Source: a plasmid. Taken from it: DNA of 5,600 bases. A program made the position numbers and the translations under genes. Positions within the stretch are counted from its first letter, which is position 1; each line of letters starts with the position of its first letter. Below, one piece after another: positions 1 through 5,600 of this stretch. The stretch lies in sequence record NZ_MK973083.1, one strand, 5' to 3'. The notes beneath the pieces are model-generated. The model was given only the letters and a program-made list of their open reading frames with translations. It was not told the origin of the DNA and ran no database searches.

Positions 1-320
<320 letters not shown>

Positions 321-384
321 CTGTCAGACCAAGTTTACTCATATATACTTTAGATTGATTTAAAACTTCATTTTTAATTTAAAA

Positions 385-407
385 GGATCTAGGTGAAGAT
401 CCTTTTT
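385..407 (+). terminator. bla intrinsic terminator (GGATCT-AGGTGA-AGATCC hairpin plus T5)
   Basis: Perfect 6-bp stem at 385-390/397-402 followed by TTTTT at 403-407, ~65 nt after the bla stop. Same sequence as downstream of bla in Tn3/pBR322. Confidence 0.6.
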
Positions 408-414
408 GATAATC

Positions 415-582
415 TCATGACCAAAATCCCTTAACGTGAGTTTTCGTTCCACTGAGCGTCAGACCCCTATCTATAAACTCTTGGCTTGGTTCTAATCCCT
501 CTAAACGATTATTATCAATAGCCGCTCTAACCGCTTTTTCTCGGCTTAATTTTTCTGTCTCTGTTATAAAATTGCTATTCAT
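415..582 (-). CDS. Small hypothetical ORF truncated/fused by the transposon end. About 38 native residues are backbone-encoded (MNSNFITETEKLSREKAVRAAIDNNRLEGLEPSQEFID) and the last 17 residues are encoded by the Tn IR. ATG at 582 preferred over the track's TTG at 597.
   Basis: ORF track 415..597. The reading frame crosses the Tn boundary at 467/468, so its C-terminus is not native. It is co-directional with rep and 25-40 bp downstream of it. Contains an RLEGLEP motif (see findings). Confidence 0.4.
   Translation of the reverse strand: MNSNFITETEKLSREKAVRAAIDNNRLEGLEPSQEFIDRGLTLSGTKTHVKGFWS
430..467. repeat. Tn3-family 38-bp terminal inverted repeat (right end, IRR)
   Basis: CTTAACGTGAGTTTTCGTTCCACTGAGCGTCAGACCCC is the reverse complement of the canonical Tn3 IR GGGGTCTGACGCTCAGTGGAACGAAAACTCACGTTAAG. 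Similarity to the Tn3/pBR322 sequence stops exactly at 467. Confidence 0.9.
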
Positions 583-621
583 CTTGTTCTTCTTCAAAAA
601 AAAGTTAAGTAAAATACCTAC

Positions 622-1608
622 CTAAATTTTTACTAGTTCGCAATCTACGAGCTTATAACCTCGTTTTTTCAATTCATTTAAAAAATCAGATTTTGAGCCT
701 AATTTTGATCTATTGCTATCGTTACCCGCTAGAAATACCCAGTAATTACGCAAATCTTCATTGGTAACTTTCGTAATATCGGTGTAATGATCTTCGAGTA
801 TTTTTAAGCAATCTCTAGCCCATAAACCGTACTCGTGATTGCTCATCTTAGGGTTTTGCTTATCGAGTTTGACGAACTTCCCATACTTGTTTTTATGTGG
901 AAATACTGGCCGTTTTGCAACTTCTTCAATTTTTTGAGCTGTTCGTTTTTTACTACCAATCACAAAATTTAAAGAGTGAATAGTACGCCCACGCTTGATT
1001 TGTTCAACCTCAACGACTAAATCAGATTTCTCGTTAATCTCAGTTATTGCAGGTTCCAAAACACGTTGATTTAATGAATTAAATCTAGGGTATTTATTTT
1101 CAACCTGAAGCCATTCTTTTAGTTTTTCTACTGTAATTTCACGACTACCAACAGAGCGATATTGTGTAATTAGCTCATAAATTCGAATTGAATGTACACT
1201 GTTGAAATAAGCGATATGTTTGAGTTGATATTGCGTGAATTGCCCTTTAAGTTGCGTTAGGTATAGCATAACTTCATCAGTCATTGCAATTCTAAAACGC
1301 CCCTCTTTCTTGAAATATGTTCTAGAGGAAACCCAACGAAATTCAGTTACACGGTCTTTATCTTCAGTTTTAACACTTCGGTCATAAATCCGTTTTATAG
1401 CCGCCTGAATTTGCTTATAGGCGTTATCTTGGCTTATTTCTGGAAACTCACGGACAAAATCAGCCACCGTAAAATCAAAAATCTTTTGATTAGATTTCGG
1501 ATCCATAGTCCCAATAGTTAAAGCTAAAATTCTGATTTCATCAATACTCAATCGGTAATTGGCTTCAATAAGGCTATTAGCCTTTACAACAACTAAATCA
1601 TTTGGCAT
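622..1608 (-). CDS. rep: Rep_3-family iteron-binding replication initiator protein
   Basis: 328-aa ORF. The N-terminus ...[23 protein letters not shown]... has the hallmark Rep_3 (pi/RepA-like) signature. It lies immediately beside four 22-bp iterons and an AT-rich region. Confidence 0.92.
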
Positions 1609-1630
1609 AAGACAACAAATTTCCTGTTTA
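1609..1630. promoter_or_regulatory. Inverted iteron copy abutting the rep start codon; likely Rep autoregulatory operator. Additional TTGTTGT/ACAACAA half-site copies in both orientations at 1632-1696.
   Basis: AAGACAACAAATTTCCTGTTTA is the reverse complement of iteron-like TAAACAGGAAATTTGTTGTCTT and ends at the rep ATG (1608). Its AGGAAA lies ~11 nt upstream of the ATG on the rep strand and could double as SD. Confidence 0.5.
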
Positions 1631-1696
1631 AAACAACAAGCAAAATATACCTGTTGTTTATATATAAAACAACAAGTATTTTCTTAAAAGTTGTCT

Positions 1697-1789
1697 ATAA
1701 CAGGAAATTTGTTGTCGTATAACAGGAAATTTGTTGTCTTATAACAGGAAATTTGTTGTCGTATAACAGGAAATTTGTTGTCGTATAAG
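1697..1789. repeat. Origin iterons: four tandem 22-bp direct repeats ATAACAGGAAATTTGTTGTCGT (1697-1718, 1719-1740 with one G->T, 1741-1762, 1763-1784) plus a partial fifth ATAAG
   Basis: Directly visible head-to-tail 22-bp repeats with no spacers, located upstream of the rep start. Confidence 0.92.
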
Positions 1790-1860
1790 TTTGTAACTTA
1801 TTGATTTTACTGGTTTTAAAAACGCCGAAAACAAGTAAAAAACAAAAATATAAAAATATA
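1790..1860. other. AT-rich region adjacent to the iterons; probable DNA-unwinding element of the vegetative origin
   Basis: TTGTAACTTATTGATTTTACTGGTTTTAAAAACGCCGAAAACAAGTAAAAAACAAAAATATAAAAATATA is more than 80% A+T. The iterons-plus-AT-rich layout is typical of Rep_3 origins. Confidence 0.55.
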
Positions 1861-1909
1861 GGGACTTTCGTCCCTTTTTTGGGCTTTCAGCCCTAATTTT
1901 TTCTTTTTT
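1861..1909. terminator. Twin short GC hairpins (GGGAC-TTTC-GTCCC then GGGCT-TTC-AGCCC) flanked by T/A runs on both sides; candidate bidirectional terminator between origin and mob module
   Basis: Hairpin 1 at 1861-1874 is followed by T6 on the plus strand and by TATATTTTTATATTTTT on the minus strand. Hairpin 2 at 1881-1893 is followed by TAATTTTTTCTTTTTT. Confidence 0.45.
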
Positions 1910-1929
1910 CAGGATTAAAAATTACAAAA

Positions 1930-2010
1930 CCCTTACAGAGCAAGTAAACTTGTTTGCTTGTTCTGCAAGGGTTCAGCAACCGTAGCCGTCAGGCGTAGGG
2001 CGGTAGCCTA
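1930..2010 (-). repeat. Left copy of a ~78-bp inverted repeat (IR-A). Contains the nested hairpin CCCTTACAGAGCAAG-TAAACTTGTTTG-CTTGTTCTGCAAGGG (1930-1971). Starts at the stop codon of the 85-aa ORF.
   Basis: The reverse complement of 1930-2010 aligns at ~80% identity with 4167-4243, shown here as rc/plus pairs: TAGGCTACCGCCCTACGCCTGACGGCTACGGTTGCTGAACCCTTGCAG... versus TAGCTAACGCCCTACGCCTACGGCTTCGGTTGTTCAACCCTTAAAG... Confidence 0.8.
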
Positions 2011-2265
2011 TAAAAGCCATTTAATTTTATCTTTAAACTTCCTTTTAAATGCTTTGAGTGGGTGTCTTTTATCGTACTCATCAATCCTTTTTTGCATTCT
2101 TTCGTTTGCTTTGTGATCGGCAAATTTTGAATAAGATTTTTCCATCTCATCTAACATTCTATCAATCCGTTTTTTATGTTGCCATTTCAGGTAAACATAA
2201 ACACTTATAGCAATTAAAGACAATATCAATACATTGTAAAAAATGATTGTTACAATTTCGCTCAC
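2008..2265 (-). CDS. Hypothetical 85-aa protein with one N-terminal transmembrane helix and a highly basic C-terminus; co-transcribed with mobC; possible mobilisation accessory (MobB-like role is speculative)
   Basis: GTG start 2 nt after the mobC stop (TAA-CT-GTG). Hydrophobic stretch IVTIIFYNVLILSLIAISVYVYL, then a K/R/E-rich tail. Followed by IR-A hairpin plus T-rich run. Confidence 0.55.
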   Translation of the reverse strand: MSEIVTIIFYNVLILSLIAISVYVYLKWQHKKRIDRMLDEMEKSYSKFADHKANERMQKRIDEYDKRHPLKAFKRKFKDKIKWLL

Positions 2266-2267
2266 AG

Positions 2268-2564
2268 TTATTTTTTACCTTTTTCAATTTCTTCATTGAT
2301 AAATGCACTCAATTCATCAAATTTCTTGTCATCATTGATAAATTTACGCAACTTAGGGAAGTTTCTATCTACATCTAAAAGAGGGTTATTTATTATTTCA
2401 TTTAGCCAAAAAGCCCCTAATAAAACCTTGTAATGCGTAGCTTTCTTACGCTTTTCTGCTTGTTCTTTTGACTTAATCGCACGAATTTTCGCTTTGATTT
2501 CGTCCTGCTTGCGTTGTAAATCTGCTTGTTGCTGTTCCAATCTTGTAAGTTTTTCGCTTGCCAT
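2268..2564 (-). CDS. mobC: MobC-like relaxosome accessory protein
   Basis: 98-aa ORF divergent from mobA across oriT, as in RSF1010. MASEKLTRLEQQQADLQRKQDEIKAKIRAIKSKEQAEKRKKATHYKVLLGAFWL resembles RSF1010 MobC (...RLAKLEEQRARINAEIQRVRAREQQQERKNETRRKVLVGAMILAK...) from memory. AAAGGGG SD upstream. Confidence 0.8.
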   Translation of the reverse strand: MASEKLTRLEQQQADLQRKQDEIKAKIRAIKSKEQAEKRKKATHYKVLLGAFWLNEIINNPLLDVDRNFPKLRKFINDDKKFDELSAFINEEIEKGKK

Positions 2565-2597
2565 ACTAGCCCCTTTATATAGTTAGAAATTATCGTT

Positions 2598-2626
2598 ATT
2601 TTATTCAGTAGGTGCTAGGCTTGCAA
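2598..2626 (-). promoter_or_regulatory. Candidate mobC promoter: the same palindromic -35 TTGCAA (2621-2626), 17-bp spacer, -10 TAAAAT (rc of 2598-2603)
   Basis: Mirror image of the mobA promoter. TTGCAA is its own reverse complement. Confidence 0.4.
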
Positions 2627-2650
2627 GTGTTCTGTTCATTACGTTAAAAT
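2621..2650 (+). promoter_or_regulatory. Candidate mobA promoter: -35 TTGCAA (2621-2626), 18-bp spacer, -10 TAAAAT (2645-2650)
   Basis: Sigma70-like hexamers read directly. The -10 lies within the oriT IR, compatible with relaxosome autoregulation as in RSF1010. Confidence 0.4.
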
Positions 2651-2732
2651 AACGTAATGCCCACTTATCAGTTTCTCTTCGAGAAACTGGTGGGCAAGCG
2701 TACCGCTTGACCGTTTCGCAATACTCAACACT

Positions 2733-4169
2733 ATGGCAATCTATCATTTAAACGTTCGCTATTGCAGTAAAAGCAAAGGGCAATCAGCTCAAGCCAAAAA
2801 CGACTACATCAACCGCAATGATAAATATTCAAAGCGGTTAGATGATTTACAGTTTTCAGGCTATGGTAATATGCCAAAATTTGCCGAAGATAATCCGCAA
2901 GAATTTTGGCGATTGTCAGATATTTACGAGCGAGCTAATGCCCGAGTTTGTACTGAAATTGAATTTGCTTTACCTAGAGAATTAACCCTAGAACAACAGC
3001 AAAAATTAGTAAGTTCGTTTATAGAAAATACGGTTGATAGCGGTAGCAATAAACTACCCTACTCTTTCGCTATCCATACCGATAAAAATAATCATAATCC
3101 CCATTGTCATTTGATATTTTCAGAACGCCAACTTGACGGCATAGACCGTACAGCCGAGCAGTTTTTTAAACGTGCTAATACTAAATCCCCAGAAAAGGGC
3201 GGAGCGATGAAAACGGCAGATTTTCGAGATCGTGAGTTTATCCAATCTGTCCGAAAAACGTGGAGAGAGCAAGCTAATCAAGCCTTAGAGCAATACGGAT
3301 ATGCCGCACGAATTGACGAACGTAGCTACAAGGAACAAGGCATAGAGCAAGCCCCAAGAGCAAGAATTGACAGGGTAACGTGGCAAGAATTGAACCGATT
3401 AGAGCAAGAAGAACGCCAAATCGTGCAAGAGCTTGCACTTAAAGGACAAGAAATTAACAAAGAAAAATCCTACTTGCAGAAAATCGAAGAAAAACAGGCT
3501 CAAGGAATGGGCAAATATGAATCCAAATTCGCAGCTGCGTTTTCTAAATTATCGGAAAGTGCCCTAAAACACGATTTAAGCAACGAAAAAGAAAAAGACA
3601 GTAAAATACACACTCAAGAAGAAAAAGTGCCTCAAAATCGCATTCAGGGGCTTTCTCAAGCAGATTTTGATCAGTTTTTAATTGATGAATGGCTACCTCA
3701 AATAGAAAAATACGTTAAAGCCCAAGAAAAGCGGGACGGAATGGAAGTAGAGATCACGCAATACGACAAGGATTTACAGCGTATTCAGGGAGACTATAAC
3801 AAGCTCACAGATAAAAATCAGGGTTTTCTCGGTTTATGGGAAACTAAAGAGCAAAAAGCAAAGAAAAAAGAGCTTGAAGATGAATACAAACATACAGCAG
3901 AGCAACGGAACGCTAAAAGCCAAGAATTAGCCGAGTATAGCCAAAAAATAAAAGCATACGAACAGAAAACGCTAGAGCCAATCAACGAGAAGATTGCCAA
4001 ATATCAAGCTGACAACCCTGAAATAAAAATGCGGAGCTTAGGATTTGTGAAAAAAATTAAGGCTCAAGGGGCATATAAAGCGGCTCAAGAGCGAATGGAG
4101 CGAGAAAAACAGCACCAACAGGAAAAACAACAGAGACATTTAGAGCGAGAGAGTGGTTTGAGCTTGTAG
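2733..4169 (+). CDS. mobA: MOBQ-family relaxase MobA (RSF1010 MobA-like N-terminal relaxase domain of ~200 aa, then a long E/K/Q-rich predicted coiled-coil tail; no primase domain)
   Basis: N-terminus MAIYHLNVRYCSKSKGQSAQAKNDYINR... versus RSF1010 MAIYHLTAKTGSRSGGQSARAKADYIQR... (catalytic Tyr at position 25). EIEFALPRE acidic motif. HTDKNNHNPHCHLIF three-histidine motif. KTPEKGGAMKT versus KTPEKGGAQKT. Confidence 0.93.
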   Translation: MAIYHLNVRYCSKSKGQSAQAKNDYINRNDKYSKRLDDLQFSGYGNMPKFAEDNPQEFWRLSDIYERANARVCTEIEFALPRELTLEQQQKLVSSFIENTVDSGSNKLPYSFAIHTDKNNHNPHCHLIFSERQLDGIDRTAEQFFKRANTKSPEKGGAMKTADFRDREFIQSVRKTWREQANQALEQYGYAARIDERSYKEQGIEQAPRARIDRVTWQELNRLEQEERQIVQELALKGQEINKEKSYLQKIEEKQAQGMGKYESKFAAAFSKLSESALKHDLSNEKEKDSKIHTQEEKVPQNRIQGLSQADFDQFLIDEWLPQIEKYVKAQEKRDGMEVEITQYDKDLQRIQGDYNKLTDKNQGFLGLWETKEQKAKKKELEDEYKHTAEQRNAKSQELAEYSQKIKAYEQKTLEPINEKIAKYQADNPEIKMRSLGFVKKIKAQGAYKAAQERMEREKQHQQEKQQRHLERESGLSL

Positions 4170-4243
4170 CTAACGCCCTACGCCTACGGCTTCGGTTGTT
4201 CAACCCTTAAAGAACTCGCAACAAGTTGCAAATTCTTTAAGGG
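4167..4243 (+). repeat. Right copy of the ~78-bp inverted repeat (IR-B). Contains the nested hairpin CCCTTAAAGAA-CTCGCAACAAGTTGCAAA-TTCTTTAAGGG (4204-4243). Starts at the mobA stop codon; probable mobA terminator.
   Basis: Perfect 11-bp outer stem with an inner GCAAC/GTTGC stem. Aligns with rc(1930-2010). Confidence 0.8.
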
Positions 4244-4367
4244 TTCGCAATAAAAACAACCGCTAAACATTTCTGCCCAGCGGTTGAAAATTTACCTATT
4301 CACCATTACAACAATGATCAAGCAGGAAATTTTTTTGATTGCCGTAAATGTCCGTATATCTAGTTGA

Positions 4368-4877
<510 letters not shown>

Positions 4878-4989
4878 TACGCTTATTTTTATAGGTTAAT
4901 GTCATGATAATAATGGTTTCTTAGACGTCAGGTGGCACTTTTCGGGGAAATGTGCGCGGAACCCCTATTTGTTTATTTTTCTAAATACA

Positions 4990-5600
<611 letters not shown>

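What the first reader, a model, noticed from the sequence alone, without database searches (positions are those of the whole stretch)
415..597. Small ORF downstream of rep is cut by the transposon end and carries a Fic-antitoxin (VbhA/YhfG)-like RLEGLEP motif
The backbone-encoded part (MNSNFITETEKLSREKAVRAAIDNNRLEGLEPSQEFID) fuses at codon 44 to residues encoded by the Tn IRR. The gene was therefore interrupted when the TnA element inserted or was truncated, and whatever lay beyond it is gone. ...AxxxNxRLEGLEPS... resembles the inhibitory-helix motif (S/T)xxxE(G/N) of the small antitoxins of FIC-domain toxins (VbhA ...SQRLEGLEP..., YhfG ...SRRLEG..., from memory). The ORF has N where those have S/T. 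If correct, the ancestral plasmid may have carried a vbhA/fic-type addiction pair at this position that the beta-lactamase transposon destroyed. Alternatively it is a small replication-associated DNA-binding protein, as is often found after Rep_3 genes.
Basis: partly seen in the sequence, partly recalled or inferred. Interest (0 to 1): 0.55.

Follow-up and report, generated by a model that had tools for sequence, protein, structure and literature searches.

The report
Transposon-cut orphan VbhA antitoxin gene remnant
The small ORF is the front half of a Fic-toxin antidote (VbhA-family) gene cut by the beta-lactamase transposon on the gonococcal penicillinase plasmid, but relatives that still hold the missing DNA show the gene had no toxin partner, so no addiction module was destroyed.

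Summary
The window is the 5.6-kb 'African' Neisseria gonorrhoeae beta-lactamase plasmid. The ORF at 415..597(-), with a more likely ATG at 582, has 38 backbone codons. Codon 39 straddles the junction with an exact 38-bp Tn2/Tn3 right inverted repeat (430..467).

The VbhA call is also correct. The 38 native residues just pass the Pfam VbhA cut-off. Full-length relatives score higher, fold into the three-helix VbhA/BiaA shape, and are 99-100% identical in the gene core to vbhA genes that overlap real fic genes on 32-kb Haemophilus influenzae plasmids. This assignment is already in RefSeq and in print (NEIS2960).

The idea that the transposon destroyed a vbhA/fic pair is not supported. A Haemophilus ducreyi record carries the same backbone with an intact 4950-bp Tn2 at the same nucleotide. 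Beyond the left repeat lie the rest of vbhA, a terminator, a 42-codon lipoprotein ORF and the mobA end, with no fic. Every other relative of this Rep_3/MobA backbone that I read also has a 70-75-codon solo vbhA.

The window differs from the H. ducreyi form by a 3555-bp deletion running from tnpR to lipoprotein codon 5. The ORF is therefore an ordinary relic, probably inert.

The parts
415..582 (-). vbhA'-IRR fusion ORF (55 aa from the ATG; the mechanical TTG start at 597 adds 5 codons). This is NEIS2960 / WP_164823310-type 'antitoxin VbhA family protein'.
468..582 (-). Native backbone part of vbhA: 38 complete codons plus the first base of codon 39. It covers predicted helix 1, which carries the inhibitory-type motif N24xxxE28G29, and the first 5 residues of helix 2.
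430..467 (-). Right terminal inverted repeat (IRR) of Tn2/Tn3, exact 38/38. It supplies codons 39-51 of the fusion ORF; Tn sequence internal to the repeat (415..429) supplies the last four codons and the stop.
1..467 (+). Tn2 fragment, part 2: the blaTEM 3' part (to 320) and the sequence up to the IRR. The record is circular and opened at PstI inside bla.
4412..5600 (+). Tn2 fragment, part 1: 5'-truncated tnpR (4412..4877, 466 of 558 nt), the bla promoter and the blaTEM 5' part (5060..5600).
4410..4411. Deletion junction (2-nt 'aa' microhomology) joining truncated tnpR to codon 6 of the lipoprotein ORF. 3555 bp present in H. ducreyi (L014 11774..15328) are missing here. The same tnpR-to-backbone junction is present in the Toronto/Rio plasmid (contiguous alignment across it), so it predates the split of at least these two gonococcal variants.
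4296..4411 (-). Remnant of a 42-43-codon lipoprotein ORF ([19 protein letters not shown]...). Its first 5 codons were lost in the same deletion.
622..1608 (-). Rep_3 replication initiator. It ends 39 nt upstream of the vbhA ATG on the same strand, with no sense-strand terminator-like site between them in the relatives scanned.

Best explanation
The ORF is the 5' half of an orphan (fic-less) VbhA-family antitoxin gene. This gene is a standing feature of a family of small Rep_3/MobA mobilisable plasmids of Haemophilus, where it sits directly after rep.

Tn2 inserted into codon 38/39 of the gene in a Haemophilus-type ancestor, a state preserved in H. ducreyi. A later 3.56-kb deletion removed the 5' end of tnpR, res, tnpA, the left repeat, the 3' half of vbhA, its terminator and the first 5 codons of a small lipoprotein gene. 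That deletion gave the gonococcal beta-lactamase plasmid backbone.

What remains can probably still be transcribed with rep and translated into a 55-aa peptide of 38 native plus 17 transposon-encoded residues. The peptide keeps helix 1 with the inhibitory-type Glu-Gly, but lacks most of helix 2 and all of helix 3, the rest of the three-helix fold seen in solved VbhA/BiaA-Fic complexes. With no fic partner on the plasmid, it is most likely an inert relic.

Shown: the family assignment, the insertion point, the deleted content and the absence of fic. Inferred: co-transcription with rep, loss of function, and that the orphan gene originally derived from a vbhA-fic pair.
For: Family. Pfam VbhA gives 26.2 bits on the 38 native residues and 39.2 bits over profile positions 1-44/47 on the full-length relative P0029. 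A profile of the clade hits VbhA chains 3ZC7_B and 3SHG_B and BiaA 5EU0_B first. The AF2 model of P0029 has pLDDT 87 with helices 8-27, 34-44 and 50-60, and its top five PDB fold hits are all VbhA/BiaA bound to Fic domains. The core is 87/88 nt identical to the pF1947 vbhA, which overlaps a Fic gene carrying HPFREGNGRTQR; that Fic's best NCBIfam match is VbhT.

Insertion and deletion. The IRR is exact. H. ducreyi CP011224.1 has a 4950-bp Tn2 at the same nucleotide, flanked by TAGATA, followed by the rest of vbhA, a terminator, the lipoprotein ORF and mobA. The window equals that arrangement minus L014 11774..15328. The same junction is in the Toronto/Rio plasmid.

Orphan state. The Tn-free H. 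parainfluenzae 4.2-kb plasmid has a 75-aa vbhA and no fic. The ~5.3-kb cryptic plasmids carrying P0005 (listed in 410 collection blocks) are the same, as are bla plasmids with an independent Tn insertion downstream of an intact vbhA. No Fic motif occurs in any frame of these sequences.

Already reported. NEIS2960 was described as a predicted VbhA-family antitoxin present in all pbla variants (PMC10438826).
Against: No expression or activity data exist, so 'inert' is an inference. NEIS2960 is retained in all described pbla variants with >98% nucleotide identity, which could be read as selection. However, it lies between rep and the bla end, the plasmid is evolutionarily young, and a variant with R26C inside the motif is seen on 57 contigs. 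The H. ducreyi record is annotated as chromosomal, and its status as the true ancestor is itself inferred. The flanking repeat there is 6 bp, whereas Tn3-family elements usually make 5 bp.
Confidence: 0.9

Rival explanations
1. One reading: the ancestral plasmid carried a complete vbhA/fic addiction pair here, and the beta-lactamase transposon (or the associated deletion) destroyed the toxin gene.
For: Near-identical vbhA cores are paired with fic on pF1947 and pF3028. vbhA-fic pairs with the same overlap occur in Aggregatibacter chromosomes. Small-plasmid vbhA genes contain the fic ATG and its first ~8 codons in the overlapping frame, so the gene very probably derives from such a pair at some earlier time.
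Against: In H. ducreyi the intact Tn2 sits at the same nucleotide, and the DNA past the left repeat holds only the vbhA 3' half, a terminator and the lipoprotein ORF. The distance to mobA matches the fic-less Tn-free plasmid L001. All small-plasmid relatives share the same fic-less 3' end: a poly-A tract followed by a terminator. No Fic motif occurs in any frame. Any loss of fic therefore predates Tn2.
Confidence: 0.03
2. The truncated VbhA'-IRR peptide is still functional in the gonococcus, for example as a minimal Fic inhibitor or as a factor needed for rep expression or plasmid stability, and is retained by selection.
For: The ORF is present in every described pbla variant, down to the 3.2-kb one, and 97.7% of plasmids carry one allele. 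It keeps helix 1 with the E-G of the inhibitory motif. It is placed to be co-transcribed with rep.
Against: Helix 3 and most of helix 2 are missing. An R26C change in the invariant RLEG motif is seen on 57 contigs, and a frameshifted 73-aa form also exists. Retention is explained by position, between the bla end and repA or the rest of the backbone, and by the recent origin of the plasmid. No class I Fic partner was identified here.
Confidence: 0.06
3. It is a small replication-associated DNA-binding or regulatory protein of the Rep_3 replicon, not an antitoxin.
For: It lies immediately downstream of rep on the same strand in all relatives.
Against: The only family and fold matches are VbhA/BiaA. 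Its core is 99-100% identical to genes that overlap fic on unrelated conjugative plasmids, where no Rep_3 gene is adjacent. No HTH or RHH family was hit.
Confidence: 0.01

Closest known systems
NEIS2960 / WP_164823310.1 'antitoxin VbhA family protein' of N. gonorrhoeae pbla plasmids (Elsener et al. 2023, PMC10438826; also called vbhA in PMC9337635)
   Same: It is the same gene. The window matches a 5600-bp N. gonorrhoeae plasmid record with 3 mismatches over the full length, and the identical 55-aa product is listed in 5287 collection blocks.
   Different: The passages retrieved from those papers call it a predicted antitoxin. They do not say that only 38 codons are native, that the C-terminal 17 residues are encoded by the Tn2 end, or that the intact gene is an orphan.
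VbhA of Bartonella schoenbuchensis (antitoxin of the class I Fic toxin VbhT; PDB 3SHG/3ZC7) and BiaA (5EU0, 5NH2)
   Same: The full-length relative has the same three-helix fold (TM 0.73-0.83 normalised to the target, rmsd 1-2 A). The RLEGLEP stretch is conserved, with the Glu aligned to the residue mutated in the 3ZCB entry 'VbhA E24G'.
   Different: Sequence identity is only about 30%. N replaces the S/T at position -4 of the motif. There is no adjacent toxin gene. In the window the protein is cut after residue 38.
vbhA-fic modules of H. influenzae biogroup aegyptius conjugative plasmids pF1947 and pF3028
   Same: The 88-nt gene core is 87/88 (window vs pF1947) and 88/88 (L001 vs pF3028) identical. 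The 3' region of homology runs to within two codons of the pF1947 vbhA stop.
   Different: The pF genes have a different leader (MISKEEK / MMITEEE) and overlap a 311-312-aa VbhT-like Fic gene. The small-plasmid genes have the MNSNFITETEK leader and end in a poly-A tract plus terminator instead of fic.
Orphan antitoxins with proposed anti-addiction function (for example the four orphan antitoxins on pVbh, Harms et al. 2017, PMC5675462)
   Same: A solo antitoxin gene on a plasmid whose cognate toxin lives on another replicon in the same host range.
   Different: That function is only proposed there and was not tested here. The window copy is truncated in any case.

Membership tests
VbhA antitoxin family (Pfam PF18495) | Significant match to the family profile | tested here: met
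   The 38 native residues score 26.2 bits, E 7.8e-6, against a cut-off of 25.9, covering profile positions 1-24/47. The full-length allele P0029 scores 39.2 bits over profile 1-44/47. A profile of the clade hits VbhA 3ZC7_B at E 0.002. NCBIfam has no matching model.
VbhA antitoxin family (Pfam PF18495) | Inhibitory Glu followed by Gly/Asn at the C-terminal end of helix 1: the E(G/N) part of the (S/T)xxxE(G/N) motif recalled from Engel et al. 2012 | tested here: met
   E28-G29 are present in the window ORF and invariant in 30 clade members. E28 aligns with the Glu of VbhA RLEGLEP, the residue mutated in the 3ZCB entry 'VbhA E24G'.
VbhA antitoxin family (Pfam PF18495) | S/T at position -4 of the motif | tested here: inconclusive
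   The window has N24. N is nearly invariant in this Pasteurellaceae clade, including members that overlap a canonical Fic gene (pF1947, pF3028, Aggregatibacter). Two members, P0081 and P0083, have S. S/T is therefore not diagnostic for this clade, but the effect of N on inhibition is untested.
VbhA antitoxin family (Pfam PF18495) | Complete three-helix fold as in Fic-bound VbhA/BiaA | tested here: not met
   The full-length relative has helices 8-27, 34-44 and 50-60, and its top five PDB fold hits are all VbhA/BiaA. The window copy ends its native sequence at residue 38, so it has helix 1 plus 5 residues of helix 2. It is a truncated member, that is, a gene remnant.
FicTA / VbhTA type II toxin-antitoxin module | Adjacent (usually overlapping) downstream Fic toxin gene with the HxFx(D/E)GNGRxxR motif | tested here: not met
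   No H.F..GN.R..R match in any of the six frames of the window, L001, L003, L005, L007, L008, L013, L014, L016, L027 or L029. The motif is present in pF1947, pF3028 and Aggregatibacter L024. No Pfam Fic hit on the four other window ORFs tested: rep, mobA and the 98- and 85-aa ORFs.
FicTA / VbhTA type II toxin-antitoxin module | The antitoxin neutralises Fic-mediated adenylylation or toxicity | not testable with these tools
   Needs co-expression or an in-vitro AMPylation assay.
Tn3-family transposon Tn2 (TnA) | 38-bp terminal inverted repeat at the junction, and continuity with bla/tnpR | tested here: met
   The IRR is an exact 38/38 match at 430..467. Thousands of TEM-Tn matches to the bla/tnpR part were found. 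The full element in H. ducreyi, measured between its two repeats at the same site, is 4950 bp; I recall 4950 bp as the length of Tn2.

The most novel reading that the evidence does not exclude
The intact orphan vbhA that follows rep in the Haemophilus small mobilisable plasmids, of which the window holds only a stump, may be an allele-matched anti-addiction or immunity gene directed against the VbhT-like Fic toxin of pF-type conjugative plasmids.

Two vbhA alleles, only 68% identical in the 88-nt core compared, each occur both as orphans on small plasmids and paired with fic on pF plasmids, at 99-100% identity. The two Fic proteins differ mainly in their first ~45 residues, so the antitoxin and the toxin N-terminus appear to vary together as a specificity block. 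Small plasmids would then track the toxin alleles of co-resident, possibly mobilising, conjugative plasmids by recombination.
Probability: 0.25. Interest if true: 0.5.

Novelty: already known. Interest (0 to 1): 0.2.

Why it matters
It matters little for the window itself. The gene is already named in RefSeq and in the gonococcal plasmid literature, and the truncated-Tn2 architecture of these plasmids has been known since the 1980s.

The useful correction is that NEIS2960 should be treated as a transposon-truncated fusion remnant, not an intact antitoxin. No toxin-antitoxin addiction system was lost when Tn2 arrived, so plasmid-stability arguments for pbla should not invoke it.

A side result may be worth a small follow-up. 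Haemophilus small plasmids stably carry an orphan VbhA whose alleles match those of fic-paired genes on larger conjugative plasmids.

Tried and rejected
- NCBIfam scan of the 38-aa, 55-aa and full-length proteins gave no VbhA model hit, so it was uninformative; Pfam was used instead.
- The sigma-70 promoter scan around rep-vbhA found none, so co-transcription with rep rests only on spacing and the absence of a sense-strand terminator.
- I tried to read Chen & Clowes 1987 (PMC212359) for the original junction description, but it is not held.
- I looked for an Asia-type 7.4-kb plasmid in PLSDB and found none among the 12 records. I used the Toronto/Rio plasmid L003 for the junction and the dimeric Asia-like contig L016 for the Fic-motif scan.
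- I first read the fic start codon and ~8 codons inside the small-plasmid vbhA as a deletion scar proving former fic. I downgraded this: those bases are part of the vbhA coding sequence because the two genes overlap, so they do not independently prove that fic was ever on the small plasmid.
- I tested whether the C-terminal ~110 residues of the pF Fic proteins hit a BID or other secretion domain in Pfam; nothing was found.
- The genome contigs, metagenome contigs and viral scans, the representative-protein search and the RNA tools were not needed.

Full report
**What the window is**

The 5600 bases are a complete circular plasmid opened at the PstI site inside blaTEM. It matches a 5600-bp Neisseria gonorrhoeae plasmid record (L022) over its full length with 3 mismatches. 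Its gene set is as follows:
- Rep_3 initiator, 622..1608(-)
- 22-bp iterons, 1696..1805
- two small ORFs, 2008..2564(-)
- MobA/MobL relaxase, 2733..4169(+)
- truncated tnpR
- blaTEM

This is the 5.6-kb 'African' pbla.1 variant described in the literature. Backbone G+C is 36% and the transposon part 47%.

**Checking the observation**

The ORF 415..597(-) is real. An exact 38/38 copy of the Tn3-family terminal inverted repeat lies at 430..467, one base to the left of where a hand count would put it. From the ATG at 582, codon 38 (D) is 469..471. Codon 39 (AGG) uses backbone base 468 plus two bases of the repeat. RefSeq and all relatives use the ATG, giving 55 aa. The ORF therefore has 38 native codons, followed by 17 codons and a stop read from the transposon end.

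**Family**

- The 38 native residues alone just pass the Pfam gathering threshold for VbhA (PF18495: 26.2 bits against 25.9, E 7.8e-6), covering the first 24 of 47 profile positions.
- A full-length allele from related plasmids (P0029, 75 aa, 36/38 identical over the shared part) scores 39.2 bits over positions 1-44.
- A profile of four clade members finds the solved VbhA chains (3ZC7_B, 3SHG_B) and BiaA (5EU0_B) as its best PDB hits. The RLEGLEP stretch aligns residue for residue.
- An AlphaFold model of P0029, built from an alignment of 30 sequences, has pLDDT 87 with helices at 8-27, 34-44 and 50-60. Its five best PDB fold matches are all VbhA or BiaA bound to Fic domains.
However, N is nearly invariant in this Pasteurellaceae clade, including members that overlap real fic genes; two members have S.
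- The family call is not new. RefSeq names the product 'antitoxin VbhA family protein'. Elsener et al. 2023 state that NEIS2960, present in all pbla variants, is a predicted VbhA-family antitoxin.

**What lay beyond the cut**

Three kinds of relative answer this.

1. A Tn-free Haemophilus parainfluenzae plasmid of 4208 bp (L001) aligns with window 491..4411 at about 94%. It carries rep, then a 75-codon vbhA, then a hairpin terminator (L001 3927-3952), then a 42-codon lipoprotein ORF, then the mobA 3' end. There is no room for fic and no fic gene.
2. Many metagenomic plasmids of the same backbone carry an intact 72- or 75-codon vbhA after rep. Some have a TEM transposon fragment inserted elsewhere in the opposite orientation, which is an independent event; others have different small cargo genes. 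None has fic.
3. Decisively, the exact 55-aa fusion product is also encoded in a Haemophilus ducreyi record (CP011224.1, L014). There the transposon is intact: 4950 bp between the repeats, with full tnpR and tnpA, at the very same nucleotide, flanked by a TAGATA direct repeat. Immediately past the left repeat, the sequence continues with the rest of vbhA (IAQNWVNGILTNEEFGKKVYEIHGLAFPKKTKPL*), the terminator, the lipoprotein ORF and mobA.

The window equals this arrangement minus 3555 bp (L014 11774..15328). The deleted stretch holds the first 92 nt of tnpR, res, tnpA, the left repeat, the vbhA 3' half, the terminator and lipoprotein codons 1-5. The two ends are joined at window 4410/4411 through a 2-nt microhomology. 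The Toronto/Rio plasmid has the same junction, so it predates the split of at least these two gonococcal variants. A six-frame scan finds no Fic motif in the window or in ten related sequences, while the motif is found in the positive controls.

**Relation to real vbhA-fic pairs**

On the 32-kb conjugative H. influenzae biogroup aegyptius plasmids pF1947 and pF3028, a 60-63-codon vbhA overlaps a 311-312-aa Fic gene (HPFREGNGR[T/A]QR). The pF1947 Fic's best NCBIfam match is VbhT.

In the 88-nt core up to the insertion point:
- the window is 87/88 identical to pF1947;
- L001 is 88/88 identical to pF3028;
- the two small plasmids are only 68% identical to each other;
- yet the two small plasmids share a 27-nt leader at 100% that the pF genes lack.

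Homology to pF1947 runs to within two codons of its vbhA stop. After that, the small-plasmid genes continue into a poly-A tract and a terminator instead of fic. The length of that tract (7, 8 or 9 A) produces three alternative C-termini among relatives.

The small-plasmid gene is therefore best seen as an orphan derivative of a vbhA-fic module that keeps exchanging alleles with the paired genes. The loss of fic, or the failure to capture it, is common to all relatives examined and so predates the Tn2 insertion. Whether a small plasmid ever carried fic is inferred, not shown. The fic ATG and first codons inside vbhA are simply part of the overlapping antitoxin coding sequence.

**How it most likely works now**

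The stump lies 39 nt after rep on the same strand. No sense-strand terminator-like site lies between them in the relatives scanned, so it is probably still transcribed and may yield a 55-aa peptide. It keeps helix 1 with the invariant RLEG, but loses most of helix 2 and all of helix 3. With about half of the domain missing and no fic on the plasmid, I consider it an inert relic (inference).

Its universal presence and near-identity among gonococcal plasmids is explained by its position between the bla end and rep, and by the young age of the plasmid. A variant with R26C inside the invariant motif is seen on 57 contigs, and a frameshifted form exists, which argues against constraint.

**Verdict**

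The family guess is right but already annotated and published. The 'destroyed addiction pair' idea is not supported. The DNA-binding-protein alternative is rejected. Interest is low.

The one mildly new point lies outside the window. Haemophilus small plasmids stably carry an orphan VbhA whose two alleles mirror those of fic-paired genes on larger conjugative plasmids, while the Fic proteins differ mainly in their first ~45 residues. That fits, but does not prove, an anti-addiction or immunity role of the kind proposed for orphan antitoxins by Harms et al. 2017.

Noticed in passing
window 4296..4411 (-); L001 4075..4203; L014 15314..15442: A 42-43-codon ORF with a lipoprotein signal ([19 protein letters not shown]|ASTRY...) follows vbhA in the ancestral backbone. 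It is cut at codon 5/6 by the same deletion in the window. Only weak signal-peptide-type hits were found in NCBIfam and Pfam; the function is unknown. The window copy has an extra Cys codon (HCCNGE against HCNGE).
   Followed up: partly
L014 10110..10115 and 15066..15071: The intact Tn2 in H. ducreyi is flanked by an apparent 6-bp direct repeat (TAGATA), although Tn3-family elements normally duplicate 5 bp. The uninterrupted relatives have a single TAGATA.
   Followed up: partly
L001 3918..3925, L007 ~6200, L013 ~4185, L014 15154..15160: A poly-A tract near the 3' end of the small-plasmid vbhA varies between 7, 8 and 9 A. This gives three different C-terminal tails: KKTKPL, KKNKTALTK and KKKQNRSN.
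   Followed up: no
window 468..555 vs L002 (pF1947) and L004 (pF3028); L001 3745..3832: Two vbhA alleles, 68% identical at the nucleotide level, each exist both as orphans on small plasmids and paired with fic on 32-kb conjugative plasmids (87/88 and 88/88 identity). The two Fic proteins are 89% identical, with differences concentrated in the first ~45 residues. This suggests a co-varying antitoxin / toxin-N-terminus block and recombination between plasmid types.
   Followed up: partly
L013 (ENA metagenome contig, 8537 bp): This contig joins the pF-type partition region (ParA, DUF1456) to small-plasmid mobA and rep through a fic-less vbhA with the pF-type leader. It is either a natural cointegrate or recombinant, or a chimeric assembly.
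   Followed up: no
L005-L012 (e.g. L007 6611..7045 and 816..1953): Related Haemophilus-type plasmids carry an independent TEM transposon fragment in the opposite orientation, inserted between the lipoprotein ORF and the mobA end. vbhA is left intact. The vbhA-mobA interval appears to be the tolerated insertion zone of this backbone.
   Followed up: partly
window 1947..2007 and 4169..4227 (also the palindrome at 4202..4245): About 60-bp related sequences (83-85% identical to the corresponding L001 copies) lie in inverted orientation on either side of the mob block. A 21-bp near-perfect palindrome lies just after mobA. These may be recombination or oriT-related sites relevant to the mob-deletion variants.
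   Followed up: no
window 1607..1628 vs 1696..1805: A single inverted copy of the 22-bp iteron overlaps the rep start codon region, opposite four direct iterons. This is the classical layout for Rep autoregulation.
   Followed up: no
L024 3001..4954 (Aggregatibacter actinomycetemcomitans chromosome): Two tandem vbhA-fic-like pairs lie side by side. The second Fic has a degenerate motif (HPFPDGNSRTLR). In other strains the first fic is truncated to 131 aa.
   Followed up: no
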